A DNA stretch of 60,000 nt from Malacoraja senta (taxonomy: Eukaryota). The stretch covers positions 22,136,001 to 22,196,000 of the forward strand of contig CM075987.1 in assembly GCA_038087875.1 (NCBI GenBank), written 5' to 3'. Below, in pieces: positions 100 to 55,818 of this stretch. Position 1 is the stretch's first letter. Each line of letters begins with the position of its first letter. A program made the position numbers and the translations under genes. A model generated the notes under the pieces. It searched no databases and was not told the DNA's origin. It worked only from the letters and a program-made list of their open reading frames with translations.

Positions 100-1393
100 T
101 CTGTATGTACTCTGGAGAAGGTTATGGAAGATAGGGAATTCGGAAAAGTGTATAGTGATGTCCTGAAACATATCAACATCACGATAGAAGATTGTTGGTG
201 GTGAGGCAATTAAGGCAGATAACTCCCTGTTTTAAATGATTAATTTCAATATGCCGACTCCTGATGTTTAATCTCACATGTAAAAACTGAACATTAATGT
301 AAAATATGGGATGTGTGCTTCAACAAGTGTCTTCAGAGGGAGGGAAAATATAATTGCCGAAAAAAGCTTCACAACTATTTCTGCGGTTGAATTGGACAGC
401 CCGTGTGTTCATCACCAATACAAAAAGCAAAAGGAGCAAGATTTACCTTCCAGTTTCTGATTCAGTTAGTGAGGTCAGTTGATAAAAGGATATTTTTTCT
501 TGTGGGAAAAAAAAGTGGTGGGCAAGACAGGATGAGAGGGGGAGGTCATTCTACTAGAGAAGTAAATTATGTAGAGTCTTCCACAGATATGGAGGGAGCA
601 CTAATGCCGTCATTAGTTCTGTGGTTTCTTGGGAACTGTTTTTTGACTATTAACACAGAAATGATGGGAACAATATAAAGGCAGTTAATTTGGGTGTTGT
701 AGACTAAAGCAGGAAGTAATCTTTATTTAGTATCAGTCACAACCTTAAAATCCCAATCTGCTTCATTACTAATGAAATAATGGATTACTATTTTCATACC
801 ATTGGCGTCAGAAGCAAAAGTAGGAGAACAGCAAGTGGAGAAGAAGGGTCTTGACGAGAAATATCAACAGTCCATTTCCATCTATGGATGCTGCCTGAGT
901 GATGCAGATGCGCAGTTACTCCAGCTGCTCTTCTTTTGCCACAGATTTCCCTGAAAATTCATTCCATGGTAGGACATATGACACATATATGGCTAACTCC
1001 TAAAATTTGTGAATGTTCAATTGGAAAGGGCAGCAGTTCCGAATTTGGATTGGAGCCACCACATGTGAACTTTTACTTGAACCTCTGAGGTATGTCAGTT
1101 CCTTGCATGATTAAATAAAAAAACCAAAAGATAGAAAAAAAGAATGATTTCAAATTCGGTAGCTTTTACATCTCAATGCTCAAAAATAAGGCAACAGCAA
1201 CAAAGGTCCAATATCAGATAGCAGTGGAGATCCCTGACCAAGCACTAACTCTAATCATTCTAACCCTTGAACTTAATTCCACATAGAATCAGCTTAGTAT
1301 ATGAGTTAGCTTGGATGAGTTAGTATTTTTCTTATCACTGATTTAATAGTTTGTGGTTAAACCTTAGCTCTGTTTTCAACCACATAAAAGGTA

Positions 1394-5740: not shown

Positions 5741-7865
5741 AAATAAAACAAAAAGGGATTTAATATTAATAATAATAACATTCTTTATCTGTTAATCAAA
5801 TGAATAGAGGAATAACAAGGCACTGCCTGGCTTACATGGATCTCAGCACCTTCAGAAATGGTTCTCAATGCCCCAGGCATCTAAAGTCTCTCCTACAGCA
5901 ATTCTTTCGTCATCCATTCATCTGTGCTGTTTTCCTATTTTTATATTCAGTCACGCATGATTTGGTAATAAATCTGGACAATACTACTTTTGATTAAGTT
6001 TTTCCTAAATTCGTAAAATCTGTCTGCAGGAACTCATCCTTTTTTTTTAACCTCTGGTATTGCTATAAACCATTACATCTGCTTGTACACACTCTCCTGA
6101 ATTATCCATTGTCAATTAACCCTGGTACCAGGGAGCGAAAATACCATCCAGGTGTCACGTTGTGCTGCCCCAACTGAATATTTGCCTGTAATTATTGCTC
6201 TTCATTTTTCTCCTTCCTTCCAGTAAAATTGACCCACCCTTGATATGGAGACACAGGAGACTGCAGATGTTGAAATTGTGAGCAAAATGTGAACAGCTGG
6301 AGGAACGAAGCGGGCCAGGCAGCATGTGTGGAATGAAAAGGGTGGATGACATTTCATGTTGGGACCCTTCCGCAGATTAGATGATAATACTTTGGCTGTG
6401 GCTGCACACCCTCATTAGTACTTATAACTCAATGTTGATTAGAGAGCAAGATTTACTTGAAGTCCCCTGAAATACCTGGCAGCTTGTCTTCCCTCTCTTT
6501 TGCATTCTGTGACTCCTCTTTCCTGAGCTGCATGTGACTAGCTTCTGAAACATTCTCTCCATGAAATAATCAGCTTCATAAAGACATCGACAATTGCTGA
6601 AGCTCCAAAGCCTGAAGCTTGAACCTTTTCATTTGTTTACACTTCCTGCACTTGTGGCTATCTGGCCAAGGGAAGCATCCTGTAGCACAGGATGTGTATT
6701 CCAAAGTGTCTTGTTATTCCTCTATTTATTCAATTAACAGATAAAGAAAACATTTACAATATTATTGCTATTAAGTCCATTTCTGTTTTACTTAAATGAA
6801 GATATAATCAGATTTGTTGGATTCAATATAGAGATATTTCTACGTGCAAGAGTCCAATTGATTAGACTGAAGTGTGAAATCAATCATAAAACTTTGTGGG
6901 GTACATCATATGTAATGTGAATTTGACTCCACGTGATGTTCCTCTGCAGAAATAATGCAGGACATGTAGGCATGGTGTAACATCATTACAATAGCAATGG
7001 ATTGCAGATATGCCTCATTCAGAAAAGCAAGTCCTAACTGAAGATTGGAGGGCTACTGGAGCATTCATAAAAGTAACAGATGTACATGCACTGTCAGAAA
7101 GCAGCAATGGGTGCAGCTGCAAGCTCGCAATGAACCAAATTTCTCAGCATTTTGCAAGGCAAATTTTGGATTCACGTTGGATATCTAATTCTCCAGCCAT
7201 AATGTCCAATCGAGTATTGGAGAAGCAGGACGTCTTCCCCTATGTCTATGCTGGCACTGTTGACTCGCAGTCTCTTGAAGACATCACTAACTCGTCCACT
7301 GCCATATCACTTTGCACGGTTGTGAACTACTGCTTCATGGGTTCCTCTATGACAATAACAACCTTTAGGTCCTTCTGATAAATGTGTCCTTTCTCCTTCC
7401 CAGAAGCAACAAAAGATGATGTCTGTCTTTTATGGTGTCCCTCCCAAAGATGTTCCAAGCAAAATCTTATCCTCTGTGTTGTTGGGCTGTGCTAGGCTTT
7501 GTGCATGCCTCTCAAATTTAGAAATGGTTAATATGTAGAAATGTTGCATTGCTGTATCGCTGAAGTGCATCAAAGCCTTACACATTTTGTACGAGTAAGA
7601 ATCCTTCTCGCATTAAAATGTGTTTGCTGTAATCACCATTTAATAGGCTAACACTGATCAAAGTTATTCCCTTTGTTCTGGACTCTCCTTCTATCTTGTC
7701 AACTCCATTAATCACCTTAAGCGCCTCTATTAGATTACTATTTAATCTCCTTTAGTCAACAGAATAAAGCCAAGTGATCTTCTGAGGTAAATAATACAGA
7801 CAAACTGCAGAAATAGTTTGGCATGTATCCATCAACAAGCTTGTTGGAGAGTAAAATGAATGAGG

Positions 7866-10800
7866 ATAGACACAAAAAGCTGGAGTACCTCAGCGGGACA
7901 GGCAGCACCTCTGGAGAGAAGGAATGGGTAACATATCGGATCGAAACCCTTCACACTGGTTAGGGATGAGGGAAACAAGAGATAGACGGTGATGTGGAGA
8001 GATAAAGAACAATGAATGAAAGATATGCAGTAATGATGATAAAGGAAACAGGCCATTGTTAGCTGTTTGTAGGGTGAAAATGAGAAGCTAGTGCGACTTG
8101 GGTGGGGGAGGAATAGAGAGAGAGGGAATGCCGGGGCTACCTGAAGTGAGGTTGGAAGAAGGGTCTCGACCCGAAACGTCACCCATTCCTTCTCTCCAGA
8201 GATGCTGCCTATCCCGCTGTGTTACTCCAGCATTTTGTGTCTACCTGACGGAAATCAATATTCATATGACTGGGCTGTAAGTTGCCCAAGCGAAATATGT
8301 GATGCTATTCCTCCAATTTGCATTTAGCCTCTGACAATGGAGGAGGCCTAGGACAGAAAGGTCAGTGTTGGAATGGGAAAGGGAATTAAAATGTTTAGCA
8401 AGCATACCTGATGTATGTCCAGGCGGACTGAGCGAAGGCGATCACAAAATGATCGCCCAGTCTACTTTTGGTCTTGCTGATGTATAAGAGTCCACATCTT
8501 GAACAACGATGTATAAGAGTCCACATCTTGAACAACGGAGATGTAGAAGATTCCATATCTTGAATCTTGCGTTTAGCCTCACTCTGACAATGGAGGAGAC
8601 CTAGTTCAGAAAGGTCTGTGTAGGAATGGGAAGGAGAATTAAAGTGTCCGGCAACCGAGAGATCAGGTAGGTTCAGGTGGGCTGAGCGAAGGTATTCCGC
8701 AAAATGATCGCCCAGTCTGCGTTTGGTCTTGCCGATGTATAAGAGTCCACATCTTGAACAACCGATACAGTAAATGAGGTTGTAGGAGGTGCAAGTGAAC
8801 CTCTGCCTAACCTGAAAGGACTGTCGGGGTCCCTGGACAGAGTCGAGAGAGGAGGTATAACGACAGATGTTGCATCTTCTGTGGTTGCAGGGGAAGGTAC
8901 CTGGGGAAGAGATGATTTGGGTGGGAAGGGCTGAGTTAACCAGGGAGTTGCGGAGGAACGGTCTCTGCGGAAGGCGGAAAGGGGTGGAGATGGGAAAATG
9001 TGGTTAGTGGTGGGATCCCGTTGGAGGTGGCAGAAATTTCAGAGGATTATGTGTTGTATGCGACGGATGATGGGGTGGAAGGTAAGGCCTAGGGGGACTC
9101 TGTCTCTGTTAGGACTATGGGGAGGGGGAGCATAGGGCGGAGCTGTGGGTTTCCGAGGAGACAAGTGAGGGCCTCATCTATGATGGGAGAGGGGGACCCC
9201 CGTTCCCTAAAGAAAGAGGGCATCTCGAATGTCCTACTATGGAACATCTTATCTTGGGCACAGATGCGGCGTAGATAGGGGTTAGCAGGGTGGGAAGAAG
9301 TGTAGTCGAGATAGTTGTGAGAGTCAGTGGGTTTGTAATAGACATCAGTCAATAGTCTACTTCCTATGATGGAGACTGAGATCAAGAAAGGGGGGGGGGG
9401 GGGTAGGTGTCGGAGATGGTCCAAGTAAATTTGAGTGTAGGATGAAAATTGGTGAATTTGATGAAGTCCATGAGTTCTGCATGGGTGCAGGAGGTAGTAC
9501 CGATGCAGTCATCAATGTAACGGAGATAGTGTTCGGGGATAGGGCCAGTGTACGCCTGGAAGAAGGATTGTTCAACATGCCCTACAGAGGCACGCATAGC
9601 TGGGGCCTATGCGGGTGCCCATAGCTATGCCTTGGACTTGGAGGAAGTGCGAGGAGTCAAAGGAGAAAGTTGTTGAGGGTGATGACCAGCTCTGCTAGGC
9701 GGAGTAGTTTTAGTAGAGGGAAATTGGATGGTTCTACGGTCGAGGGCTTTAAGGCCTTTCTGTGGGTGATGGAGGTGTAGAGTGACTGAACGTCCATAGT
9801 AAAGATGAGGGAGTGTGGGCTCGGAAAGCAGGTCATTAAAGAGATGACGGGCATGTGAGGTATCTTGGACATAGGTCGGGAGAGATTGGACCAGGGGGGA
9901 TGGATTGGAGTCAAGGTATGTGGAAATCATTTCCGTGGGACAGGAGCAGACAGAAACAATGGGTCTGCCACGGCAGTTGTGTTTGTGGATTTTGTGCGGG
10001 GCTGGGAAACGATAAGGTTGGAGGCTGCCAGAAGTGATAAAATCAGAAATGGTGGGTGAGATTAAGGCCTGGTGCTCATCTGTGGGGTCATGGTCCAAGG
10101 ATAAGTAGGAGGAGGTATCTGAGAGTTGTTGCCTGGCCTCAGCCAGGTCAGCACGCAAGACTACCATGGCACCTCCCTTGTCGGCAGGTTTGACGATAAT
10201 GTCGGGGTTACTGCAGAGTATGTGGAGGGCTGTACGTTCAGAGGAGGTAAGGTTAGAGTAGGTAAGGGGAGTAGAAAAGTTGAGATGGTTGATGTCACTC
10301 CGCCAGTTAGAAATAAAGAGGTCTAGCGAGGGTAAAAGACCTTTCTGGGGAGTCCAAGAGGAGGGGGACCGGTGGAGACGGGAGAAGGTGGATGGGAGGA
10401 CTCCTTACCATAGAAAAAGGCACGGAGACGGAGGCGACGGAAGAAAAGCTCTACGTTGTTGCGGACCCGGAACTTGTTGAGGTGGGGGCGGAGGGGAACA
10501 AAGGTGAGGCCTCTGTTGAGGACAGACCACTCCGTATTGGAAAGGGGGAGGTCAGGGGGGATGGTGAAGACATGACAAGGGTGGGGTTTGGGGTCAGAGG
10601 AGGGCCGGGGAGTGGACAAAGGCCGAGATGAGATCTGGTGGGGGGGATGGTGGGTGTTCAGAGAGGAGCGGGGCGTGAGGACTATTGTATGGGTGGGGTG
10701 TGGTCATGGTAACCTGGTTAAAAGAGGGGGAAGAGGAAGACCCATCACTACTGAGGTTCCCTATAGGAGGGGGAGGGGGGGAGTAATAGGGCCCAGCAGA

Positions 10801-11790
10801 GTCAGACCACATTGTGTAGGAGTCTGCATCGTGGAGGCTGTGAGTCTGGTGCTGAGCCTGGAACTCTGGCAAGGCTACGGCTCCGGCCCGCTGGTGGGTG
10901 GTGGAGAGGCGAGGATCGGCAGAGTCATTGGTGGAGGCCCATGGGGGGCTGGAGTAGAGATATGGGTCAGCGGCAGCAGTGTCGGTGGCCCTGGGGAGAC
11001 AGTGAAGGTCAGGGACAGTGGTGGCCCCGGGGAAATGGTGCGAGTCGACGACAACAGCGGTGGCCCCTGGGAGGCGGTGAGAGTCGGCGGCTGCAGCAGT
11101 TTTGGTGGTCCGGGCCTGGGTTCGGCCGGGAAGGCGGTGAAGGTCGGAGAGGTGATGGATGTTGGTGCTGCTCCTCGTGGCGGCAATCTCAGCCACGTGG
11201 TGTTCGGGCAGGCGGCGCGGCCCAGCGGTGGAGCCACAGGCTTGCAGGCGGTCGAGTCGAGGAGTGTCGGTGGAGGGAGCGGTCTGGAGGCGAGCAAGCT
11301 TGTGATCCTTGGTAGAGTCCAGGTAGGCGAGGAAGTGTTTGTTGAGGGCGTGGATCTGGCATCGAATGAAGTACCGTTGGGGTCCATTGCAGGTGTGGGT
11401 GAGTGAGGCCAGGAGCTGTGGGAGAATCAGAGCGAGGGCCTGCTGGTGCCGGCGCATTGCAGTCAGTGTAGAACGCAGGGCATGGAAGGAGAACTGCTGT
11501 GAAAAGCGGCAGATCGACTGTCGGTACCTGTAATCCGGGTTGGGTCCGAACTGGGATGTCTGGAACTGGAGTTGGAATCCATGAGGTAGAAGATGGAGGT
11601 GCAGGTAAGCACTGAGAAAACACATGTGGCTGTGGTAGTGAGTCTGGGTTAAATCCTGGTCGTAGAGTCGGAGAGCAGGAGAAATCAGAGAGAGGGAGCA
11701 GTGAGAGAGGATGTTGCAGAACTCTCGTCGGAGAGAGGAGGAGAACTTCTTCAAAGTAGACTTACCTTGAGGAGATTTCGCTGTAGAGCA
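7866..11790 (-). mobile_element. Near-full-length Penelope-like element (Neptune-type), frameshifted
   Basis: N-terminal H..FL...L.PHGFQLQF and LSNTEWSVLNRGLTFVP motifs. RT motifs GRPIVS, TMDVQSLYTSI, YLRYIDDC, DVYYKPTDSHNYL. Cys linker and GIY-YIG-like region near 8700-8900. 3' pLTR-like tail 7866-8150 matches 46200-46510. Confidence 0.88.
8152..8246 (+). mobile_element. Inverted PLE terminal-repeat fragment inserted in the PLE 3' end
   Basis: gaagaagggtctcgacccgaaacgtcacccattcc...tgtgtctacc lies in opposite orientation to the 7866-7950 copy. Confidence 0.8.
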
Positions 11791-13340
11791 GACGAAATGT
11801 GTAAGAATGAATGAGGAATCAGAGGAAGAGCACAGTGCAACACTAATTTCCATGGAATATATTGGATTGACATAACAACGCAGAGGATAAGATTGTGCTT
11901 GGAACATCTTTTGGAGGGACACCACAAAAAGAAGACATCATCTTTTGCTGCTTCCTGGAAGGAAAATGGACACATTTATCATGAGGACATAAAGGTTGTC
12001 GATCAATCTTCCTTTTCTCTTTCTGCCACAACTATCATACCTTTTGTGAGAACAGGAAACAGGACATATGATGGGTCTTGGGCAGCAGATATGTTATAGT
12101 CCTGTACGGCCTTGGTTCCAACTTCCACTCAGTAACATTTATTACCTGTATGTGGTGGTGAGATTGTTTTCCCAGGGAGCACGGCAGCATTAATGAAGTA
12201 GCCTTGAGTTCTATGTGGTGGATGAAGAATTTACATCGGGATTTGACAAGAATTTGAGTGAAATGTCATATCTTGTTGTTTTACTCCAAGAAAAGGAATT
12301 TGAGTTTCAACAAGTTGTAACAAATTATCACACTCTTATGATGCAGTGTTTCTCAGTTAATGAACTGTTCCTATTATGGAAGAAAACATGATAGTCAGTT
12401 TGTGCACTTTAAAAGCCACAAACTAGTGAATGATCGGCTAATTTTTTGGGCTGAGCCAGTTGTGAGAGGAATATTAGTCAAAATAATAGGTGAACCTCTC
12501 TACATCTTTCAACTTGCATCATAGGACTTTTTGCATTTATATAGGCAGTTGTAATAACTCAATCAGAAAACATGACATTGCCCAACAATATTGCTCTTAG
12601 CTCTCAGTGAACATGGGCATTATCCTGAGAAAATTATTTTATTTGTCCCACCTTTGCCATTTTGTGGACATCCAAAAGTACTGCAGTTTTGAAGTATGGT
12701 CACTGATATGCAAGCTGATGCTGAAGCCAATTTGTACACCGCAAAGTCTCTGTAATTGTGCAATAGTGAAGTAATGACTAGTTAATCAGTTTTGTTGCTA
12801 TTGATTGAAGGAAATTGTGTTATTCTCTGAATAGAATCTCTATATGCTTCTGAGCATGTTGTTTATCTGCGTTAAATGTCTGAAATAAAATGCTGCACCT
12901 CTTGGTATGTTTAAATTATTTGTTCAATACTGCTGATTTCTAAGTTCCTCATTAGTTAGTGAAAGTAACTCATAAGCCTTTATTAATTTTTTTAAATCAG
13001 TCACTCCGTTTTTTTGCTGTTTTCATTACTGGGAATATGTTTTTAATTTCTTGTATAAATGTCCTTCAACTTTGATATCTTTTTAAAAAATTGTTAAAAT
13101 ATAGCTCTGCAGTCAGGGCACTGAGCTGAGCCTGTCTACTTGACTTTCTCTATTTACAGGTTCTTTTGGGAGAGATAGTCTTTAACCTCCACACCTCAAT
13201 TTGCTTCAATATAAATGGTGAAATTGTGACGATGGGAAGATTTGAATTGTTTCAATTATGATTTATTTCGCAGGTGTCATAGAGTGTTGGGAGATTGGTT
13301 TATAAACACCAGTCGTACACATCAATTTGTTATTATTCCT

Positions 13341-13575: not shown

Positions 13576-15197
13576 CAAGAGAGTTTATTGTCATGTGTCC
13601 CAGATTGGACAATTAAATTCTTGCTTTGCTTCAGCACAACAGAATATAGTAGGCATGAATACAGAACTGATCAGTGTGTCCATATACCATTATATAAATA
13701 TATACACACATGAATAAATAAACAGATAAAGTGCAAATAAACAGATAATATGCTATTAATGTTCAGAGATTTGTTTGAGTTGAGTTTAATAGCCTGACGG
13801 CTGTGGGGAAGTGGCTATTCCTGTACCTGGACATTGCAGTCTTCAGGCTCCTGTACCTTCTACCTGAAGGTAGCAGGGAGATGAGTGTGTGGCCAGGATG
13901 GTGTGGGTCCTTGATGATACTGCCAGCCTTTTTGAGGCAGCGACTGCGATAGATACCCTTGATGGTAGGGAGGTCAGAGCCGATGATGGACTGGGCAGTG
14001 TTTACTACTTTTTGTAGTCTTTTCCGCTCCTGGACGCTCAAGTTGCCGAACCAAGCCATGATGCAACCGGTCAGCATGCTCTCTACTGTGCACCTGTAGA
14101 AGTTAGAGAGAGTCCTCCTTGACATACCGACTCTCCGTAATCTTCTCAGGAAGTAGAGGCGCTGATGTTCTTTTTCTTTATAATGGCATCAGTGTTCTCG
14201 GACCAGTAGAGATCTTCAGAGATGTGCACGCCCAGGAATTTGAAGCTCTTGACCCTTTCCACCATCGACCCATTGATATAAACGGGACTGTGGGTCCCCA
14301 TCCTACCCTTTCCAAAGTCCACAATCAGTTCCTTGGTTTTGATGGTATTCAGGGTCAGGTTATTGTGCTGGCACCATTTGGTCAGTTGGTCGATTTCTCT
14401 TCTATACTCTGACTCATCCCCCATCAGTGATATGTCCCTCAACAGTGGTGTCGTCAGCGAACTTGATGATGGCGTTCGCACTATGACAGGCTACGCAGTC
14501 ATGAGTATAGAGTGAGTACAGCAGGGGGCTGAGCACGCAGCCTTGAGGTGCTCCCGTGCTGATTGTTATCGAGGCTGACACATTTCCACCAATACGAACA
14601 GTCTGTGGTCTGTGAATGAGGAAGTCGAGGATCCAATTGCAGAGGGATGCGCAGAGACCCAGTTCTGCGAGTTTGGTAACCAGCTTGGAGGGGATGATTG
14701 TATTAAATGCCGAGCTGTAATCAATGAATAACAGCCTGACATATGAGTTTTTGTTGCCCAAGTGGTCCAGAGCTGAGTGGAGAGCCAGCGAGATCGCATC
14801 CACCATTGATCTGTTGTGGCGGTAGGCGAACTGCAGTGGGTCCAGGTTTTTGTCGAGGTCGGAGTTGATTTGCGCCATGATCAACCTCTCAAAGCACTTC
14901 ATCACCACTGACGTTAGTGCCACTGGTCGATAGTCATTGAGGCACATCACCTTGCTCTTCTTGGGCACCGGTATAATTGATGCCCTTTTAAAGCAGATGG
15001 GAACCTCAGACCTCAGAAGTGAGAGGTTGAAAATGTCCATAAAAACTCCAGCCAGTTGGGCCGCACAGGTTTTTAGAACACGACCGGGTATACCATCAGG
15101 TCCAGGCACTTTTCGAGGGTTCACCCCTCTGAAGGATTTTCTGACGTCGGCATCTGTGACTGTGACTGAAATACCATCACAGCAAATGGGGGCTCGA

Positions 15198-16022
15198 TTT
15201 GATTTGATTTGATTTGATTTGATTCAATTTATTGTCATTGCACTTTTCAGTGCAACGAAATGGTTTAGCCTGCAGTCATAACATAGAATAAATAACAAAA
15301 ACACACACTCAACACAGTTTAACATCCACCACAGTGAGTCCACCAGGCACCTCCTCACTGTGATGGAAGGCAAAAAAGTCCCAAAGTCCATGTCTCTTCC
15401 CTCCTTGCTCTCCCTCTGTGCTGAGGCGATCCAGGCCTCCGATGTTGTGACCCCACCGGGTGACGGTAAGTAAGTCCCACGGCTGAATCCGAACGTGCCG
15501 GTTCAAACTCCGCGGCCCAGGGCGGTCGAAGCTGCCGAAGCTGCCACCCTCCAGTCCAGCGGACGCAGCTGTTGTTGCGGGAGCTCCAGAAAAACAGGTC
15601 ACCAACCTGTGACCTGCGAGCTCCCGACAATGTCGTCCACTGGCCCTCGCCGTGCCTCTGAGGCTCCGAAGTCGGGTCGGAAGTCGGGTCGCAACGCCAC
15701 CACAGCCCCGAAGTCGGCCAGCCCCGCGCTGGCAAGTCCTGGCTGGCTCTGTCTCCCGAGCCCCAAGGTCGGTCCCAGTTGGGGGCCGCCAGCTCCGCGA
15801 TAGGCCTCAGCGCAGACGGAGACGGAGACGGGCGATACGGCAAGAAAGGTCGCATCCCCCCCGAAGGAAGAGCCAAAAAACATGCTTCTCCAACCCCCCC
15901 ACACATACACAACTAAAATAAACCAAAACAAACTGCAACAACGGGACAAAAGAAAACAAAAAAAGAAAAGACAAACGGACTGCAGGCGAGCCGCAGCTGC
16001 AAGGCCGCGCCGCCACTAGAAA
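15198..16022 (-). mobile_element. Non-coding CpG-rich retroposon with Rex1-like 3' tail, inserted in the Rex1 LINE
   Basis: Minus strand ends gacaataaattg(aatca)n. Flanked by a 42-bp direct duplication (15153-15194 / 16026-16067). Shares aacatccaccacag...cctcactgtgatggaag with 37375-38128. Confidence 0.8.
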
Positions 16023-30558: not shown

Positions 30559-30804
30559 TTTCTTTATTGCAGGCTCAAAAGTATTTGGAGATGTATACAT
30601 TCTTAACAACTTGCATCCATGTAAGATTTTTAAAGTAGAATGTGGAAGATATCCCAAAGTACCACACATTATTGCGATAAATGTCCTAAGGGGAAGTATG
30701 TACCAAGGAGAGAGCCCAAAGAATATGTTTTGAGAAGGATTTTTAGAAAAAGTTAATAATGAAATCGTATTAATGGAAAGTAGTTTCCGAGTTTGAATCT
30801 TGAG

Positions 30805-31222
30805 AAAAAAACAAAAGGCTGGAGAATTTAAGTGAGTCAGGCAGAATCTAGCGGGAATAGGCAGTTGACATTTTGGGCGGGAACCCTTCTTCAGACTGAT
30901 GCGGTAGAGAGGAGAAATAACAAGGAAATATGGGACAGAGATGGGAGATGAGTGTACGCAGGAGGGGAAATGGTCAGGGTGACTTCAGTGATGGGGGATG
31001 GTGGGAGAAATGTGTATGCATTCGAGCAGGGGGAGGGAGTGGAAGGGCAGGAGACAGAGAAAGGGATAGGGAATGTTTTCTCTGAAATTGGGAAATTCAG
31101 TATTCATGACATTGGGTGTAGGCTGCCCAAGCGCAATATAACGTGCTGTTCTTTCACTTTGCATGTGGCTTCGCTGTGGCAAAGGAGGAGACCAAGGACA
31201 GAAAGGTCAGTCTGGGAAGGGG
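30805..31222 (-). mobile_element. PLE 3' end / terminal repeat remnant
   Basis: gaacccttcttcagactg (antisense hammerhead-like core) and gctgcccaagcg.aatata...ggacagaaaggtcagt matching 8270-8370. Confidence 0.7.
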
Positions 31223-38952: not shown

Positions 38953-40302
38953 CCGCTCATACAGAAAACCAGGCTTAAGCATTCACCACCGTTCAGCCAG
39001 AAGTACCTATGGATGATCTATCTCTGCTTCTCCTGAGATCCCCACCACCACAGAAACCAGTCATCTGACAATTTGACATGAAAGGATAATTCCACATGAC
39101 ACCAGAAAATGGCAAAGAGTGCTGGATAAAGCAAAGGCTATGGGACTGGACATTCAGTGTGGCGGTGACACAAGGGACTGCAGGCATACTCAAGATTTGC
39201 TGTTTGGAAATAGTTGTGCCTCTAAGGAAGTTGTTACTCTACCTGACATCTACCAGCAATATGTAAAATTGTCCAGGTATGTCCATTGCAGAAAAAATAG
39301 ATTAAATCAAGGTGGCTGATAACCACCTAATCAGTTCATTTTCAATTAACTGAAGTTGTGGAAAGTGTCATTTACATTGCTATCAAATGGCATTTATTCG
39401 CTGTAAACTTGCTGACAGATTGGACCACTCAGCTGCAGAACTCAAACATGGACTAAGAAATTGAATCCCAGATTTGAGATAAAGGTGACTGCCCAGTAAC
39501 ATTTGACCAATACCTTGCACAAAATAAGATGTTTTGGGTTGTGGAGGACAATCAACTCAGTCGCAGGACATTGCTGCAGGAGTTCCTCAAAGAAGTGTCC
39601 TTGGTCCGTCAGATGTTTTACCAGTGACCTTCCTTTTATTAAAAGGTTTGAAGTGAGAATGATTGCAGCTGGTACAAAGTTGAATTCTATTTGCAACTCC
39701 TTAGCAAAGAAAATGTCAAAGATATGGACAACATTCATGCATGGACAGATAAGGAGCATGTAACATTTGCATCACAATAGTGCCAGACAATGCCTCTCCT
39801 CAACAAGATTACCATTCCATAGCACAGACTCCCATTATCAACATTCTGGCAGTATTCATGACTAGAGAAATCTCTGACATTTTCTTGACCAGTAATTCAA
39901 CTCGATCAGCCTCATGAACACTGGCTGCACGAGCAGGTCAGTGGCTGGGAATCCTGCAATGAGTGACTCGCCTACTGGCACTCCATAGCCTTTCCAGTCT
40001 CTGCAATACACAAGCAGAAATGTAATCCAATACTCTCCATTTACCTGGATGAGGTGTAGGTTAAACAACATTCAGCGACCACTACACCATCTACGACAAA
40101 GCAATCTTGATTGGCATTCCGTTTCAGGGACAGTTAGGAATGAGCAATAAAAGCCGTTGATGCTCATATCCTATTAAATGAACAAATACCAAACGTGTTT
40201 GCGAGTGCATGATGGAACAAAGACTATGAGACTATGTAACATTCGGGCAGTAATCCTGAATAATTGCACTACAGAATGACCTAGATCTCTAAACAAGTTG
40301 TT

Positions 40303-40428
40303 AAAGAAGGAACTGCAGATGCTGGAAAATCGAAGGTACACAAAAATGCTGGAGAAACTCAGCGGGTGCAGCAGCATCTATGGAGCGAAGGAAATAGGCA
40401 ACGTTTCGGGCTGAAACCCTTCTTCAGT
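40303..40428 (-). mobile_element. ~126-bp PLE-terminus mini-element with hammerhead-like core and 17-bp TSD
   Basis: TSD TCTCTAAACAAGTTGTT at 40286-40302 and 40429-40445. Minus strand starts aCTGAAGAAGGGTTTCAGCCCGAAACGTT. Confidence 0.85.
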
Positions 40429-40661
40429 TCTCTAAACAAGTTGTTCCTTTCGTTACATTTATGCATCTACCTGATGATGTAGAAATATGCATGACTGTTT
40501 TATCCACTAAAGGCATCACATAGAGATCACACGGTTAAGGTAACACGTTGGTATTTGAGCTGGTTGCTTTGAGTGATTTCAAGTGATTTGAGTGATTTGG
40601 AGCCTTCGACATCATGTTTTGTCCAAATGGTTAATTATATCATCATTAGGTTACTGCAATC

Positions 40662-40975
40662 TTTCAGGCATAAGCTCAGGTGCGACCGAGCTTTTGCGGT
40701 TGCAGCACCTAGACTATGGAACAGCATCCCTCTTCCCATCAGCACTGCCCCCTCCATCAACTCTTTTAAGTCTAGATTTAAAACTTATTTTTACTCACAA
40801 GCATTTCTCGAGGTCCTCTGAGGGAGCGCTGTATGTATGTATTTATGTATGTATTGTTGATCTATATACCACTGTTTGTAGAACGTTAGTACCTGCACTG
40901 ATGTAAAGCACTTTGGTGAATGAGAGTTGTTTTTAAATGTGCTATAGAAATACAATTGACTTGACTTGACTTTGA
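40662..40975 (+). mobile_element. L2-type LINE 3' end
   Basis: DRAFAVAAPRLWNSIPL.I..A.SINSFKSR.KTYF, then tgtaaagcactttg...aatgtgctatagaaa and (TTGAC)n tail. Confidence 0.85.
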
Positions 40976-41572
40976 CAAGGTTGGGGAAGATGTTTTTGAA
41001 AGTGTAACAGCACTTACTAATAACCTGTTCATTACTACACTGTTTAGGTTCTGCCAAGGCTACATACGTAGTTCCAGACTTCATCATAGCCTCAGTGCAA
41101 CATGAACAAAACAGCTGAATTCCAGAGCAAGGAGAGAGTGATGCAGTTGATATCAAGACAGTGTTTGGCCAAATGTGGTACCAAGGAGCAGCGATGAAAC
41201 CGAAATCAACGGGAATGGAAGGTGAACATGCACACTGTCTGGAGATATTTCTTGCACAATAGAACCTAGTTGCAAGACATGTGTGCAGTGTGAGTCATCA
41301 CATAGAGATAACACAGTTAAGGTAACCTCCACTTCTGTATTTGAGCTGGTTGCTTTGAGTGTAAGATCAAATGATTTAGACATCATGCTTTTGTCGTTAA
41401 GTCAGCATTATCTGGCCAGTAGTGAATTTTAATAGAAAGTTCCAAGCGTTAGGTTGTAATGAAGGTAGGAGGGAGACTAAGAGATGCACACTTAGATCGA
41501 TTGCAGCTTGTAGTCAGTGGACACTGTGGATTGAAGAGAGAGTGGAATGTGAGAAGAAGGGCACCATTGTCT

Positions 41573-41697
41573 GAAGAAGGGTCTAAACCCGAAATATCAC
41601 CCATTCCTTCTCTCCAGAGTTGCTGCCTGTCCCGCTGAGTTACTCCAGCATTTTGTGTCTATCTTCGGTGCAAACCAGCATCTGCAGTTCCTTCTTA
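41573..41697 (+). mobile_element. ~125-bp PLE-terminus mini-element with 11-bp TSD
   Basis: TSD CACCATTGTCT at 41562-41572 and 41698-41708. Begins (ct)GAAGAAGGGTCTAAACCCGAAAT. Confidence 0.85.
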
Positions 41698-41725
41698 CAC
41701 CATTGTCTTCATTGATATCACTCAT

Positions 41726-42546
41726 GTAGAAGTGAGATCGACGGTCTGACCAAATGGTGCCAGCACAACAACCTGGCTCTCAACATCAGTAAGACCAAGG
41801 AACTGATTGTGGACTTTGGTAGGGGAAGGATGAGGACCCACAATTCTGTTTATATCAACGGGACAAAGGTCAATAACTTCAAATTCCTGGGCGTGCATAT
41901 ATCAGAAGATCTTTCCTGGACCCAGCACACCGATGCAATTGTAAAGAAGGCACATCGGCGACTCTACTTCCTGAGAAGATTACGGAGATTCAGCATGTCG
42001 AAAAGGATTCTCCTAAACTTCTACAGGTGCACGGTAGAGAGCATTCTGTCTGGTTGCATCGTGGCCTGGTTCAGCAACTTGAACGTCCAGGAGCGAAAAA
42101 GACTACAAAAAGTTGTGACCACTGCCCAGTCCATCACTGGCTTTGACCTCCCCACTGTCAAAGGGATCTATCGTAGTCGCTGCCTCAAAAAGGCAGCCAA
42201 AACAATCAAGGACCCACACCATCCTGGCCACACACTCATCTCACCACTGCCATCAGGAAGAAGGTACAGGAGCCTGAAAACTAACGTCCAGGTTCAGGAA
42301 AAGCTGCTTCCCCACAGCCATCAGGCTATAAAACACAACAAATAAGCTATGAACTCTGATATGCAAAAGACTACATTATTATTTGTTATTTGCACTATAT
42401 TTGTTATTTATTGAACTTTTTTTTTTTTTTTTTCCGTTATGCACATTGTTTACATATTCACATATTCTGTTGTGCTGCAGCAAGTAAGAATTTCATTGTC
42501 CCGCCCGGGACATATGACAATAAAACACTCGACTCTTGACTCTTGT
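41726..42546 (+). mobile_element. 5'-truncated Rex1/Babar LINE
   Basis: KTKELIVDFG...FKFLGVHISEDLSW...RLYFLRRL...FYRCTVESIL...LPSGRRYRS and gacaataaa (ACTCTTG)n tail. Confidence 0.92.
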
Positions 42547-45334: not shown

Positions 45335-46549
45335 CCAAACCCACTGACTCCCACAATTATCTCGACAACACTTCTTCCCACCCTGCTTCCTGCAAAGACT
45401 CTATCCCCGACTCCCAAATCCTCCGTCTACACCGCATCTGCGCCCATGATGAGGTGTTCCATACCAGAACATCCGAGATGTCCTCATTCTTATAGGGAAC
45501 GGGGTTCCCCTCTCCCATCATAAATGAGGCCCTCACTCATGTCTCCTCGGTACCCCGCAGTTCCGCCTGTGCTTCCCCCTCCCCCCAGTCGCAACAGAGA
45601 CAGAATCGCCCTAGTCCTTACCTTCCACCCCATCAGCTGTCGCATACAACACATAATCCTCCGAAATATCCGCCACCTCCAACAGGATCCCACCACTAAC
45701 CACATTTTCCCATCTCCACCCCTTTCCGCCTTCCGCAGAGACTGTTCCCTCTGCAACGCCCTGGTTAACTCATCCCTTCCCACCCAAACCACCCTCTCCC
45801 TAGGTACCTTCCCCTGCAACCACAGAAGATGCAACACCTGACGCTGTACCACCTCCCTCGACTCTGTCCAGGGACCCCGACGGTCCTTTCAGGTTAGGCA
45901 GAGGTTCACTTGCACCTCCTCCAACCTCATCTACTGTATCCATTGATGTATCCGTTCAAGATGTGGACTCATACATCAGCGAGATCAAATGCAGACTGGG
46001 CGATCGTTTCGCGGAACACCTTCGCTCAGTCTGTGTGAACCAACCTGATCTCCTGGTTGCTGGACACTTTAATTCTCCTTCCCATTCCTTCATTACCCAC
46101 GTTTCTGTCCTTGTTCTCCTCTTTTGTCAGAGTGAGGCGAAATGCAAATTGGAGGAACAGCATCTTATATTTCGCTTGGGCAGCATACCAGTGGTATGAA
46201 TATTGATTTATCTCACTTCAGGTAGCCCCAGCATTCTCTCTCTCTCTGTCCCTCCCCCACCCAAGTCACACTAGCTTCTCATTTTCATCCTGCAAACAGC
46301 TTACAATGGCCTGTTTACTTTATTATCGTTACTTTTTTGCATATCTTTCATTCATTGTTCTTTATCTCTCCACATCACCGTCTGCAGTATATCTCTCGTT
46401 TCTCTTGTCCCTAACCAGTCTGAAGAAGGTCCTGACCCAAAACCTCACCCATTCCTTCTCCCCAGAGATGTTGCCTGTCCTGCTGAGTTACTCCAGCTTT
46501 TTGCGTCTATCTTCGATTTAAACCAGCATCTGCAGTTCCTTCTTTCACA
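45335..46549 (+). mobile_element. 5'-truncated Neptune-type PLE (RT C-terminus, GIY-YIG region, terminal repeat)
   Basis: KPTDSHNYL, LVLTFHP, GTFPCNHRRCNTC linker, FTCTSSNLIYCI, RLGDRFAEHLRSV, EEQHLIFRLG. Terminal ctgaagaagg...ccagcatctgcagttcc. Confidence 0.9.
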
Positions 46550-47194: not shown

Positions 47195-47322
47195 AAAGAA
47201 GGGTTTCACCCCGAAAGGTCACCCATTCCTTCTCTCCAGAGATGCTGCCTGACCCGCTGAGTTACTCTAGCTTTATGTGTCTATCTTTGGTTTAAACCAG
47301 CATTTGCAGTTCATTCCTACAC
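47195..47322 (+). mobile_element. PLE-terminus mini-element
   Basis: aagaagggtttcaccccgaaaggtcacccattcc...gcagttcattcctacac. Confidence 0.8.
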
Positions 47323-47514
47323 GTTTAGTGCAACAATATCTATAGTATGAGTGATACATGATGGAACTGTTTTAAAGCAAATTACGGTAAATACCAAAAT
47401 CAGACTGGCATAATAATGCCTATGTTATCCTCGAGTCAAAATTTATCAAAGAAGACCAGCTCCGTTGGATATTATGGGAAAATGTGTGTTGAGATTGTAA
47501 CATAGTTAGCTCAA

Positions 47515-47720
47515 AAACACCCACAAAGGAATGGAGTAAATCAGCAGGTCGGGCAATGTCTGTGGAGCACATAGACAGGCAATGTTTTGGGTCAGGACCC
47601 TGCTTCAGACTCTGAAGAAGGGTCCCGATCCAAAATGTTGCCTGTCCATATTCTCCAGAGATGCTTCGTGGCCCACTGAGTTACTCCAGCACATTGTGTC
47701 TACTTTTGTAAACCAGCATC
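47515..47720. mobile_element. Head-to-head (palindromic) pair of PLE-terminus elements
   Basis: Inverted arms meet at ...gcttcag-act-ctgaagaag... (~47603-47620). Confidence 0.75.
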
Positions 47721-48078
47721 TGCAGTTCCTTGTTTCTACATGCAATCAGCTCAAGTCTGTTCAACATGGTACAAGCCACATACAAGATGCCTGTAGATGC
47801 TGCCTATCGATGATCTATGATTTCAGCAATCAGTTATTGATTGGACCACAAGAAATAAGGCAAAGTTGTGAGCACTCAGCATCAATTCAAGATATCTTAC
47901 CCTAATTAAATCCAACCTTCACCTTGTAAAACGATACAGTGGTGGAAATAGCGGGACACAAATGAGAGCAGGTGTAGAAAGTCTTCTAGGCACAAAATGA
48001 AATAGCTGTGGACCTCAAATAAGGAATGTAACCTGGAGGCACTGCTATAAAATGTTCAATGATTTCAGCTGCCCAGGC

Positions 48079-51869: not shown

Positions 51870-52155
51870 TTGTGTAGGAAGGAACTGCAGATGCTGGTTT
51901 AAACCAAGGATAGACACAAAATGCTGGAGTAACTCAGCGGGACAGGTAGCATCACTTGAGAGAAGGAATGGGTGATGTTTCGGGTCGAGACCTTGCATCA
52001 GGACTGAGAGTGTAAAGGCAAGATACCTGGTATAAATAGGTGAGAGGGAGGGATGAGCCAAGTCATAGATAGATCTTGAACCAAAACTTCGATTATCCCT
52101 TTGCTCCACAGATGCTGCCTGACGTAGTGAGTTCTTCCAGAAGCTTGTTTTTTGC
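51870..52155. mobile_element. PLE terminal-repeat fragments in inverted arrangement
   Basis: Minus copy 51870-52001 (antisense of ctgatgcaaggtctcgacccgaaac) plus a diverged plus-strand copy at ~52070-52155. Confidence 0.7.
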
Positions 52156-55439: not shown

Positions 55440-55818
55440 GTGTAGAACAGTAACTGGCCCATTGGCCCACTATATCTGTACCAAGCTTGATGCCAAACAA
55501 ACCGACCCCATCTGCTTGCAAATGATCTGTCTGCCTCCATTCCCCACCTATTCATGTGTACAACTAAGCAATGCTTTTGTATTTCTACACGATCATTCCT
55601 TCTTTCCAGAGATGCTGCCAGTCCGTTGAGTTACTCCAGCATTTTGTGTCTATCTTTGGTTTAAACCAGCATCTGCAGTTCCTTCCCACACAATGCTTTT
55701 GTATTTGCTTCCACCGCCTTCCCTGATAGAGCATTCCAGGCACCTACCACTCTCTGTGTAAAAAAAAACCATGCCTAACAAATCCTTCTTCAACGTCTCC
55801 CCCTCACCTTAAACCCAT
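55440..55818 (-). mobile_element. CR1-type LINE 3' remnant carrying a TSD-flanked PLE mini-element (55585-55690)
   Basis: gcattccaggcacctaccactctctgtgt is antisense to the RVV..WN region. The insert is flanked by the 16-bp TSD CAATGCTTTTGTATTT (55569-55584 / 55691-55706). Confidence 0.75.

What the first reader, a model, noticed from the sequence alone, without database searches (positions are those of the whole stretch)
40286..41708. TSD-flanked ~125-bp mini-elements that begin at a minimal hammerhead ribozyme core
Seen: two independent insertions (40303-40428 minus, 17-bp TSD; 41573-41697 plus, 11-bp TSD) consist only of the PLE terminal sequence. Both start within 1-2 nt of CTGAAGA-A-GGGT(loop)RCCC-GAAAC-GTH. 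Copies at ~840, 8152 and 47195 start at about the same place, while 55585-55690 (16-bp TSD) starts just downstream of the core. Known: CUGANGA/stem II/GAAAC-GUH with a vestigial palindromic stem III is the minimal type-I hammerhead of PLE terminal repeats. Inference: these are a non-autonomous ribozyme-bearing family mobilised by the Neptune PLE. The recurrent 5' boundary ~25 nt upstream of the predicted cleavage site is not explained by simple self-cleavage, and suggests RT arrest, template switching or circular/dimeric RNA templates.
Basis: partly seen in the sequence, partly recalled or inferred. Interest (0 to 1): 0.72.

Follow-up and report, generated by a model that had tools for sequence, protein, structure and literature searches.

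The report
Short run-off copies of a Penelope retroelement
The two ~125-base insertions are very short copies of the ribozyme-bearing end of a Penelope-like retrotransposon, a family of about a million copies in this genome, and their fixed ends show where the element's reverse transcriptase starts and stops.

Summary
Both insertions are flanked by target-site duplications and belong to one repeat family: 124 profile hits in 260 kb, and 182,761 exact CTGAAGAAGGGT cores genome-wide.

The family is the pLTR/5'UTR module of a Neptune-type Penelope-like element (PLE). Intact 1,225-1,233-aa RT/GIY-YIG ORFs lie about 40 nt downstream of it. The motif fits the published PLE minimal hammerhead except that helix I has only 2 bp. 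No Rfam model detects it.

The 3' ends fall at two sites about 30 nt apart (about positions 95 and 127). This matches the two internal RT start sites and optional "tail" described for an Anolis PLE.

The 5' ends pile up 0-6 nt upstream of the CUGA box, with a mode at -3/-2. Mismatch there is 13-24% per position, against 6.8% at an internal control. There is no pile-up at the predicted cleavage site.

Best reading: these are dead-on-arrival run-off cDNAs. They run from the internal start sites to a template 5' end next to a conserved Inr-like CAGT. They are not a self-propagating lineage, and they were not made on circular or dimeric templates: only 45 head-to-tail junctions exist.

Separately, rare tandem arrays exist. 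Two of them have units that begin exactly at the predicted hammerhead cut.

The parts
40286..40302 (.). Left copy of the target-site duplication of mini-element 1 (17 bp; 13-17 bp once overlap with the element's 3' end is allowed for)
   Evidence: exact repeat AACAACTTGTTTAGAGA, read in element orientation
40303..40428 (-). Mini-element 1. It covers profile positions 1-125 plus one extra 5' A. It belongs to the young subfamily and differs from ORF-linked copies at 2 of 125 positions.
40400..40427 (-). Minimal hammerhead motif of mini-element 1: CUGAAGA, A, GGGU-UUCA-GCCC, GAAA, CG, UU. The predicted cut lies between 40400 and 40399.
   Evidence: for the sequence; features compared
40429..40445 (.). 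Right copy of the target-site duplication of mini-element 1
41562..41570 (.). Left copy of the target-site duplication of mini-element 2 (CACCATTGT; the repeat extends to 11 bp if CT at 41571-41572 is counted)
41571..41697 (+). Mini-element 2, covering profile positions 1-125. It is an older subfamily. The hammerhead motif at 41571-41598 is decayed at the CpG (GAAAUAUC).
41698..41708 (.). Right copy of the direct repeat of mini-element 2. Its first 3 nt (CAC) may instead be the element's own 3' end.
   Evidence: family 3' ends read ...CCTTCCTACAC
7860..8394 (-). 3' UTR and terminal module of a degenerate PLE whose ORF fragments lie at 8395-10404 (minus strand). The terminal module is 7953-7860 and ends at RT start site 1. 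An inverted partial module lies at 8155-8255.
46305..46544 (+). 5'-truncated PLE end: about 115 nt of 3' UTR followed by the full module 46421-46544. It shows that CTGAAGA is not the end of the parent element.
47509..47734 (.). Head-to-head inverted pair of modules (47607-47509 minus, 47613-47734 plus), joined at the 5' edge with AGT between them
47196..47318 (+). Solitary module starting at profile position 4 and ending at site 2
51876..52000 (-). Module of another subfamily with 3' UTR-like sequence upstream (…CTCAGTC) and a mutated core (CTGATGC)
55569..55706 (+). 5'-truncated module (aligned 55594-55685, profile positions 32-122) with a 16-bp TSD (55569-55584 and 55691-55706) and 9 extra nt at its 5' junction
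840..926 (+). Old, diverged module starting at profile position 3
30803..30893 (-). Old module with a pyrimidine-rich ...CATCAGT upstream; it ends near site 1

Best explanation
The mini-elements are very short, dead-on-arrival insertions made by the reverse transcriptase/endonuclease of a Neptune-type Penelope-like element.

Proposed mechanism:
1. The enzyme starts cDNA synthesis at a nicked target site, but at one of two fixed internal positions of the element's RNA. These lie about 95 nt and about 127-131 nt downstream of the start of the hammerhead core.
2. This start-site module sits directly upstream of the ORF, so it lies close to the 5' end of element transcripts.
3. When synthesis starts there, the cDNA runs off after only about 95-130 nt, at an RNA 5' end lying 0-6 nt (mostly 2-3 nt) upstream of the CUGA box. 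That end is most likely a transcription start at the conserved Inr-like YCAGTC.
4. The short cDNA is joined to the target, often through 1-3 nt of microhomology. This leaves TSDs of 8-17 bp.
5. Priming of both target strands, or snap-back at the stem-II palindrome, gives the frequent head-to-head pairs.

What is shown and what is inferred:
- Shown: the module's place in intact elements, the two 3' end classes, the 5' pile-up, and the lack of a pile-up at the ribozyme cut.
- Inferred: that the 5' edge is a transcript end, that it is a transcription start, and that the minis cannot move again.
For: Architecture:
- In 4 loci with intact 1,186-1,233-aa ORFs the module sits about 40 nt upstream of the ATG. 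It recurs after the 3' UTR, where it ends at GTGTACC(TTC).
- L001 is flanked by a 10-bp TSD.

3' ends:
- Of 124 hits, 39 end at profile positions 92-99 and 54 at 118-124.
- DNA-contig loose ends fall at the same places (places 2490-2493 and 2526).
- This matches the two adjacent internal RT start sites, and the 30-40-bp tail between them, of the Anolis PLE.

5' ends:
- Of 124 hits, 73 start at profile position 3 or earlier.
- Genome-wide mismatch is 13.3, 14.2, 22.7 and 23.7% at positions -1 to -4, against 6.8% at the internal control.
- Only 80,139 of 182,761 cores (44%) keep CAGT. About 75% would be expected from decay alone.
- TSD-verified starts fall at -7 to +2.

Independent signs of a template end at this edge:
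- In the 45 head-to-tail junctions, canonical 3' ends abut AGT/GT/CAGT+CTGAAG.
- In array L125 the filler before CAGTCTGAAG differs between units (A8CC against G), as expected from template jumps off an RNA end.
- Seven head-to-head pairs are joined at the same edge.

Conserved motif and precedent:
- CAGT is kept in all subfamilies although the sequence further upstream varies.
- D. virilis Penelope has an Inr-type internal promoter with its start site in the pLTR (passages).

Not an independent lineage:
- Mini-element 1 is 123 of 125 identical to an ORF-linked module.
- The closest genomic relative of mini-element 2 is 95% identical.
- The Anolis template needs about 55 nt beyond the start site. 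Minis lack any element sequence there.
Against: - Copies that run on into the 5' UTR rarely start at this edge. Of 40 sampled, 23 continue into the 3' UTR, 3 start at CAGT with a unique flank, 4 are head-to-head at the edge, and 10 are otherwise truncated.
- None of the intact-ORF loci examined starts at the edge. If one RNA population served for both products, more long copies should start there.
- The edge is spread over about 7 nt. In the young subfamily the mismatch is 15.4, 9.7 and 10.0% at positions -4, -5 and -6. That is broader than a single start site.
- There is no clean cap signature. G is enriched before AGT (8 of 10 in the small sample; 41 of the first 100 rows). But in the three TSD-resolved cases the preceding base belongs to the TSD.
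- No RNA evidence was obtained.
- The requirement for downstream template sequence comes from a different PLE clade and was not tested here.
Confidence: 0.55

Rival explanations
1. RT arrest or preferred 5' truncation. The template RNA extends upstream into the pyrimidine-rich 3' UTR, but the enzyme tends to stop or dissociate at the 5' edge of the folded hammerhead/tail domain. The unfinished cDNA is then joined to the target by microhomology.
For: - The 136-nt stretch from -3 folds into a closed domain. Its terminal stem pairs UGAAGAAGG (5') with CCUUCUUUA (3'), and an inner stem pairs AGAUGCUG with CAGCAUCU; z = -2.18.
- Junction microhomology of 1-3 nt is common.
- The edge is spread over about 7 nt.
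- Long copies usually continue upstream, so such RNAs exist.
Against: - Long copies and arrays L121-L124 were copied straight through the same point.
- No stable helix ending at -4 was seen in the 3' UTR by eye.
- The terminal stem shows no compensatory change in the CCTTGTT subfamily.
- Template-jump-like junctions at the same edge fit a physical RNA end better.
Confidence: 0.25
2. A self-propagating non-autonomous family (SINE-like, or a retrozyme monomer), transcribed from its own copies and mobilised in trans by the PLE.
For: - Very high copy number: 182,761 exact cores and 91 hits in 180 kb of untargeted DNA.
- Discrete unit sizes.
- pLTR sequences alone can mobilise foreign DNA in rotifer PLEs (passages).
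- A 2026 preprint derives animal retrozymes from PLE pLTRs.
Against: - Minis stop exactly at the RT start sites and carry nothing downstream of them.
- Mini-element 1 is nearly identical to ORF-linked modules.
- The 38 closest relatives of mini-element 2 that were fetched, out of 40 scored, are 93-96% identical to it, and some of them are UTR-linked.
- No tRNA, 7SL or 5S head and no Rfam family at gathering score in the window.
- Minis are dispersed or inverted, not tandem.
Confidence: 0.12
3. The minis are copied from circular or tandem-dimer RNAs released by hammerhead self-cleavage (the rolling-circle route of retrozymes).
For: - Tandem arrays of PLE-derived units of 138-384 nt exist.
- Two arrays have units starting at the predicted cut. 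One of them has 11 identical units.
Against: - Only 45 head-to-tail junctions genome-wide.
- Two of 124 hits start near the cut, at profile positions 30 and 32.
- Purines at position 28 are rare.
- Each array junction is confined to one locus.
- A circle would not give a fixed 5' edge upstream of the core.
Confidence: 0.05
4. Solo modules left behind by DNA-level deletion or recombination between the repeats of full-length elements.
For: Solo pLTRs without TSDs are reported in rotifers and attributed partly to recombination (passages).
Against: TSDs of 8-17 bp directly flank the minis. Recombination between the two modules of one element would leave the 3' UTR attached upstream.
Confidence: 0.03

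Closest known systems
5'-truncated copies and solo pLTRs of endonuclease-containing Penelope-like elements (Neptune/Poseidon/Penelope), with the optional 30-40-bp tail and inverted 5' partners
   Same: [quoted passage not shown]
- Partial-tandem pLTR.
- Two 3' ends about 30 nt apart.
- Head-to-head pairs with palindromic junctions: 20 pairs among 124 hits.
- TSDs of variable length.
- All of these are described for PLEs.
   Different: - Here most copies are reduced to about 95-130 nt, with a preferred 5' edge just upstream of the ribozyme core. I did not find that edge described in the papers I read.
- The copy number is very high, about one hit per 2 kb of sampled DNA.
Minimal hammerhead ribozymes of metazoan PLEs (Cervera and De la Pena 2014; PMC4209133, main text read)
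   Same: - CUGANGA box, one extra nucleotide before helix II, G10.1-C11.1, GAAA, a self-complementary C-G at 15.2-16.2 with no helix III, and a GUH cut triplet.
- Location in the pLTR.
- The paper reports thousands of solitary copies 'probably related to truncated PLEs', and paired motifs on opposite strands.
   Different: - Helix I is only 2 bp here. The paper gives 4-5 bp as typical, and 2 bp for the D. virilis variant.
- Cleavage was not assayed here.
- The paper's supplementary descriptor and figures were not seen.
[quoted passage not shown] 2024; PMC11167929, main text read)
   Same: - Two adjacent start sites downstream of the hammerhead, with the tail lying between them.
- Run-off to the template's 5' end.
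- Both target strands are extended.
- The ribozyme is not needed for insertion, and no ends were seen at its cut site.
   Different: - Different clade.
- Here the start sites lie upstream of the ATG, 67-70 nt and about 98-102 nt after the cut. In Anolis they lie 111-118 nt into the ORF.
- The evidence here is genomic footprints, not biochemistry.
Metazoan non-LTR retrozymes (Cervera and de la Pena 2020, PMC7229834, passages; Li et al. 2026 preprint, abstract and results)
   Same: Arrays L121-L125 (units of 254-384 nt, each with one type-I hammerhead, built from pLTR plus ORF ends) fit the description and the proposed PLE origin.
   Different: - The mini-elements in the window are dispersed monomers or inverted pairs, not tandem repeats.
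- Arrays L119 and L120 lack the ribozyme core altogether.

Membership tests
Penelope-like element, endonuclease-containing, Neptune-type | Reverse transcriptase domain with a YxDD motif | tested here: met
   L001 ORF: RVT_1 E = 5.9e-6 (26.6 bits, below Pfam's cut-off of 29.6); YIDD at residue 880
Penelope-like element, endonuclease-containing, Neptune-type | C-terminal GIY-YIG endonuclease | tested here: met
   GIY-YIG E = 0.0022 (18.7 bits, below the cut-off of 22.6) at residues 1137-1170; LIY...YIGETKRRLGDRF motif. The window ORF 8395-9003 also matches weakly.
Penelope-like element, endonuclease-containing, Neptune-type | CX2-5CxxC zinc-finger-like motif in the RT-EN linker (Neptune and Nematis clades) | tested here: met
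   CNRKRCNTC at residue 1100; the criterion is taken
Penelope-like element, endonuclease-containing, Neptune-type | Placement inside the Neptune clade on an RT tree | not tested
Penelope-like element, endonuclease-containing, Neptune-type | pLTRs from partial tandems, inverted 5' partners and an optional 30-40-bp tail | tested here: met
Minimal type-I hammerhead of PLEs | Core boxes CUGANGA and GAAA, and a UH cut triplet | tested here: met
   The core is intact in mini-element 1 and in all ORF-linked copies printed.
Minimal type-I hammerhead of PLEs | [quoted passage not shown] | tested here: met
   GGGU/GCCC or GGGU/ACCC after an extra A. Between subfamilies there is a one-sided change, U-G to U-A, and no double compensatory change.
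Minimal type-I hammerhead of PLEs | No helix III; self-complementary 15.2-16.2, which allows a dimer | tested here: met
   GAAA-CG-UH, that is the palindrome ACGU; criterion
Minimal type-I hammerhead of PLEs | Helix I of 4-5 bp | tested here: not met
   Only G2.2-C1.2 and U2.1-A/G1.1 pair; the next two positions mismatch in both subfamilies. A 2-bp helix I is reported for D. virilis.
Minimal type-I hammerhead of PLEs | Detection by the curated Rfam hammerhead models | tested here: not met
   No hit at gathering score in the window. No hit at E up to 10 on 40000-42000 or on L119 plus L121.
Minimal type-I hammerhead of PLEs | Self-cleavage at the predicted site | not testable with these tools
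   Indirect only: the unit boundaries of arrays L119 and L120 fall at position 29
Non-LTR retrozyme | Head-to-tail tandem repeats of about 150-450 bp, each with a hammerhead | tested here: not met
   For the minis: 45 head-to-tail junctions genome-wide and 3 same-strand neighbours in 124 hits. The feature is met by the separate arrays L121-L125.
Non-LTR retrozyme | Expression as circular RNA | not testable with these tools
   No RNA holder listed. The one raw RNA run is from a related organism and shows only embedded copies.
SINE (Pol III-derived) | A tRNA, 7SL or 5S-derived head with an internal promoter | tested here: not met
   No Rfam family at gathering score anywhere in the window

The most novel reading that the evidence does not exclude
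The genome keeps fossil records of two fates of PLE RNA.
- Uncleaved RNAs, with 5' ends just upstream of the ribozyme, give the roughly million-copy class of run-off minis.
- Hammerhead-cleaved RNAs, with a 5'-OH at position 29, are the ones that become circular or concatemeric templates. They yield tandem arrays such as the 11 identical 138-nt units of L119 and the 165-nt units of L120.

This would be the first in vivo footprint of self-cleavage by a vertebrate PLE minimal hammerhead. It would also give the ribozyme a role: switching the template from linear to circular.
Probability: 0.3. Interest if true: 0.7.

Novelty: new member of a known kind. Interest (0 to 1): 0.48.

Why it matters
PLE mobilisation is poorly understood, and the role of the ribozyme is an open question. 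This genome offers hundreds of thousands of natural insertion end points.
- They reproduce, in a second PLE clade, the two internal RT start sites found in vitro for Anolis.
- They show that the ribozyme cut is not the usual template end.
- They point to a defined template 5' end next to the ribozyme.
- They include rare arrays whose unit starts at the predicted cut.

Each of these points can be tested directly with 5'-end mapping and a cleavage assay.

For annotation, it matters that about 95-nt and 127-nt hammerhead-bearing repeats are PLE by-products. They are not a separate SINE or retrozyme family.

Tried and rejected
RNA evidence:
- The look-up of sequencing runs listed no RNA holder.
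- The single raw RNA run (X24, polyA, a related organism) showed equal depth on both strands over the module. 92% of its laid reads ran on into unlike sequence, and there were no start or end pile-ups. This means copies embedded in other transcripts, so it says nothing about element transcripts.

Splicing idea (donor CAAG|GTATGC after the tail, acceptor at the polypyrimidine-CAG before the core): the predicted junction has 0 matches genome-wide.

Cap-derived extra G:
- G is enriched before AGT, in 8 of 10 small-sample cases and in 41 of the first 100 rows.
- A is equally enriched genome-wide. Rows gave A 70 and T 30 of 100, with G at 10,341 and A+T at 14,609.
- TSD-resolved cases place the base inside the TSD. 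The question was left open.

Enrichment of 5' ends at the cut: not seen.

Covariation tests were not run, because the copies are neutrally decaying and differ mainly at CpGs.

Other attempts:
It was replaced by sampling 40 loci.
- The search of earlier findings returned nothing.
- Literature searches for shark or skate PLE descriptions and for PLE non-autonomous or template-jump reports found no description of this edge. The supplements of the papers cited were not seen.
Full report
**1. What is at the coordinates**

One search shows two short insertions.

The first lies on the minus strand at 40303-40428.
- It sits between exact 17-bp direct repeats, 40286-40302 and 40429-40445.
- In element orientation it reads A-CTGAAGA-A-GGGT-TTCA-GCCC-GAAAC-GTT... 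and ends ...GCAGTTCCTTCTTT.

The second lies on the plus strand from 41571/41573 to 41697.
- It sits between CACCATTGT(CT) repeats.
- Both ends of that repeat overlap bases that could equally belong to the element, so the duplication is at most 11 bp.

A blastn of the two copies against the window found about a dozen relatives. The whole-genome DNA search gave 2,545 first-look candidates. Of these 40 were scored, and most cover all 125 bases at 93-95% identity. The window belongs to a 1.94-Gb eukaryotic assembly.

**2. The parent element**

Minus-strand ORF fragments at 8395-10404 carry Penelope-like hallmarks. Their 3' UTR ends in the same sequence.

A protein search of the genome gave 12,944 first-look candidates. 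Of these 147 were scored, and several have open frames of 1,186-1,233 aa. I fetched eight such loci together with twelve arbitrary 10-kb stretches.

In the intact loci the order of parts is as follows:
- the end of an upstream ORF and about 145 nt of pyrimidine-rich 3' UTR ending ...CTATCAGT;
- the 125-nt module, CTGAAGA...CTTCTTT;
- about 40 nt of 5' UTR, then ATG and the ORF;
- the 3' UTR again;
- the module again, this time ending at GTGTACC(TTC), about position 93-96.

L001 as a whole is flanked by a 10-bp TSD.

The ORF has these features:
- an RT match (RVT_1, E = 5.9e-6) and YIDD;
- a CNRKRCNTC linker motif;
- a C-terminal GIY-YIG match (E = 0.0022).

Both Pfam scores are below the curated cut-offs. 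The linker motif is the feature that separates Neptune and Nematis from other clades. I did not build a tree, so "Neptune-type" is a structural label only.

**3. The hammerhead motif**

The module begins with:
- CUGAAGA;
- one extra A;
- a 4-bp helix II that opens with G-C;
- GAAA;
- a self-complementary CG;
- U and then H (GUU or GUC).

Cervera and De la Pena (PMC4209133, main text read) list several features as emerging from their hits without being in their descriptor: the extra nucleotide, G10.1-C11.1 and the palindromic 15.2-16.2. They also place the motif in PLE pLTRs, including Neptune elements of fishes.

By my rough estimate, such a composite motif would arise by chance in a 4-kb element with a probability of about 1e-5.

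Two tests fail:
- Helix I has only two pairs, GU with AC or GC.
- No Rfam model reports a hammerhead, even at E up to 10.

I therefore treat it as homologous to the PLE minimal hammerhead, with its activity unproven.

**4. The ends of the copies**

I built a profile from 26 natural full-length copies. It found 124 hits in the window plus the 20 loci, 260 kb in all. Of these, 91 lie in the 180 kb that was not chosen for PLE content.

The 3' ends form two peaks: profile positions 92-99 (39 hits) and 118-124 (54 hits). The other 31 hits end elsewhere.
- DNA contigs of two public runs break at the same two places.
- This is the pattern that Frangieh et al. (PMC11167929, main text read) traced to two adjacent internal RT start sites with the optional tail between them.

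The 5' ends are distributed as follows:
- 73 hits start at position 3 or earlier;
- 16 start at positions 4-8;
- 18 start at positions 10-22;
- 17 start at position 30 or later.

Only two hits start near the predicted cut between positions 28 and 29. They start at positions 30 and 32.

Of the 89 hits that reach the 5' edge:
- 42 have unique upstream flanks;
- 24 face an inverted partner;
- 19 continue into recognisable 3' UTR, 13 of them being the targeted PLEs;
- 4 follow another copy on the same strand.

About eleven of the 42 "unique" flanks still end in a pyrimidine run plus CAGT, so they probably extend a little further upstream.

**5. Whole-genome counts**

Exact-pattern counts are complete for this genome.
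- CTGAAGAAGGGT occurs 182,761 times.
- The base before it is T in 158,375 cases.
- Of those, G precedes in 135,930.
- Of those, A precedes in 105,089.
- Of those, C precedes in 80,139.

The loss per step is 13.3, 14.2, 22.7 and 23.7%. An internal control position loses 6.8% (7,617 of 112,706).

For the young subfamily alone the losses at positions -4, -5 and -6 are 15.4, 9.7 and 10.0%. The last of these is largely due to head-to-head junctions of the form CTTCAG-T-CTGAAG.

The edge is therefore real and strong, with a mode at -3/-2, but it spans about seven positions.

TSD-resolved copies start between -7 and +2, and they often share 1-3 nt with the target.

**6. What sets the edge**

Three observations fit a physical template end.
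- Head-to-tail junctions are rare, 45 in the genome. Many join a canonical 3' end directly to AGT, GT or CAGT plus CTGAAG.
- In array L125 the filler before CAGTCTGAAG differs between neighbouring units, A8CC against G. This is expected if the enzyme jumped from an RNA 5' end to another RNA's 3' end.
- Seven inverted pairs are joined at the same edge.

CAGT is kept in every subfamily although the sequence upstream of it varies. YCAGTC also resembles an initiator. D. virilis Penelope uses an Inr-type internal promoter with its start site in the pLTR (PMC2377424, passages), and an Inr-like motif is noted in rotifer pLTRs (PMC3846280, passages).

Against a simple transcription-start reading:
- Of 40 copies that run on into the 5' UTR, 23 continue into the 3' UTR and only 3 start at CAGT.
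- None of the intact loci starts there.

A possible reconciliation is inferred, not shown. Only the 5'-proximal module of a transcript has the downstream sequence that the enzyme needs, so most initiations give minis. Full-length copies would come from longer read-through or tandem transcripts.

RT arrest at the edge of the folded domain remains a serious rival.

**7. Not a separate family, and not circles**

- Mini-element 1 differs from an ORF-linked module at 2 of 125 positions.
- Mini-element 2 has no relative closer than 95%.
- Its 38 closest relatives that I fetched include UTR-linked, inverted-pair and solitary forms.
- Minis carry nothing beyond the start sites.
- Minis are dispersed or inverted, not tandem.

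**8. An unexpected side result**

The exact tail-5'UTR junction occurs 414 times. The first 100 places listed include tandem arrays with periods of 138, 165, 254, 260, 275, 299 and 384 nt.

Five of the arrays have units made of ORF start, part of the 3' UTR, the hammerhead and the tail. They fit the description of non-LTR retrozymes and their proposed PLE origin.

The other two arrays lack the ribozyme core.
- Their units begin at position 29, the first base after the predicted cut.
- The junction ...CAAGGTATG|ACCTATTTCC occurs in 11 identical 138-nt units.
- The junction ...CTCCTCCTCT|ACCTATTTCC occurs in 4 units and is ambiguous by one base.
- Each junction is confined to one locus.

With seven arrays, two boundaries falling in that 2-nt window has a chance of about 1e-3. 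That figure is my own rough estimate and was made post hoc. This is a lead that the ribozyme cuts in vivo and that cut RNAs become circular or concatemeric templates. It is not a demonstration.

**9. Verdict**

The PLE and hammerhead assignments stand. The "non-autonomous family" and "circular template" readings do not hold for the minis.

Most of what is seen is already described for PLEs: solitary minimal hammerheads, the tail, inverted partners and solo pLTRs. What I did not find in the papers I read is:
- the preferred 5' edge next to the ribozyme;
- the scale of the run-off class;
- the arrays that start at the cut site.

Supplementary figures of the cited papers were not seen, and they may bear on the helix I criterion.

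Noticed in passing
G000:C1:27817100-27818900 (L119) and G000:C1:381271050-381272000 (L120): Tandem arrays of 138-nt units (11 identical) and 165-nt units (4). Each unit is made of the tail, the 5' UTR and the first bases of the ORF. The units lack the hammerhead core and begin at the base after the predicted cut.
   Followed up: partly
L121-L125 (G000:C1, near 256.83, 28.90, 231.19, 363.29 and 247.04 Mb): Tandem arrays of internally deleted PLE units (254-384 nt), each with a complete minimal hammerhead. They look like retrozymes. In L125 the junction filler differs between units (A8CC against G).
   Followed up: partly
G000:C1:3.87-4.06 Mb: The core motif recurs on both strands with a period of about 2.44 kb over nearly 200 kb. 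This is a large tandem array that contains module copies. It inflates the counts for A at position -2 and G at position -1.
   Followed up: no
L001:816, L003:6591-6616, L019:6395-6402, L017:9472-9477 and others: Head-to-head pairs joined inside helix II, so that the junction is a near-perfect palindrome centred on the stem-II loop. This looks like snap-back priming at that hairpin.
   Followed up: partly
L002:2395-2530 (the same module as window 40303-40428): Predicted fold closes the module with a stem between the hammerhead's 5' core strand (UGAAGAAGG) and the end of the tail (CCUUCUUUA). An inner 8-9-bp stem pairs AGAUGCUG with CAGCAUCU and is kept in both subfamilies. This fold would compete with the ribozyme fold.
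   Followed up: partly
window 41716-42345 (+) and 14414-15223 (-): LINE-type reverse transcriptase fragments (ALKBH8_N-like tail domain; RVT_1 E = 3.8e-25). Mini-element 2 lies immediately upstream of the first fragment.
   Followed up: no
window 2044-2643 (-): Tc1/mariner-type transposase N-terminal region (HTH_Tnp_Tc3_2, Sleeping Beauty-like HTH).
   Followed up: no
window 10594-11937 (-): A long open frame, overlapped by open frames in other phases. It contains KSTLKKFSSSLRR, which matches the start of the PLE ORF. The window's degenerate PLE therefore probably extends to about 11,900.
   Followed up: no
window 41592-41595: In mini-element 2 the CG at hammerhead positions 15.2-16.2 has become TA. 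The pair is still self-complementary, although both bases changed.
   Followed up: no
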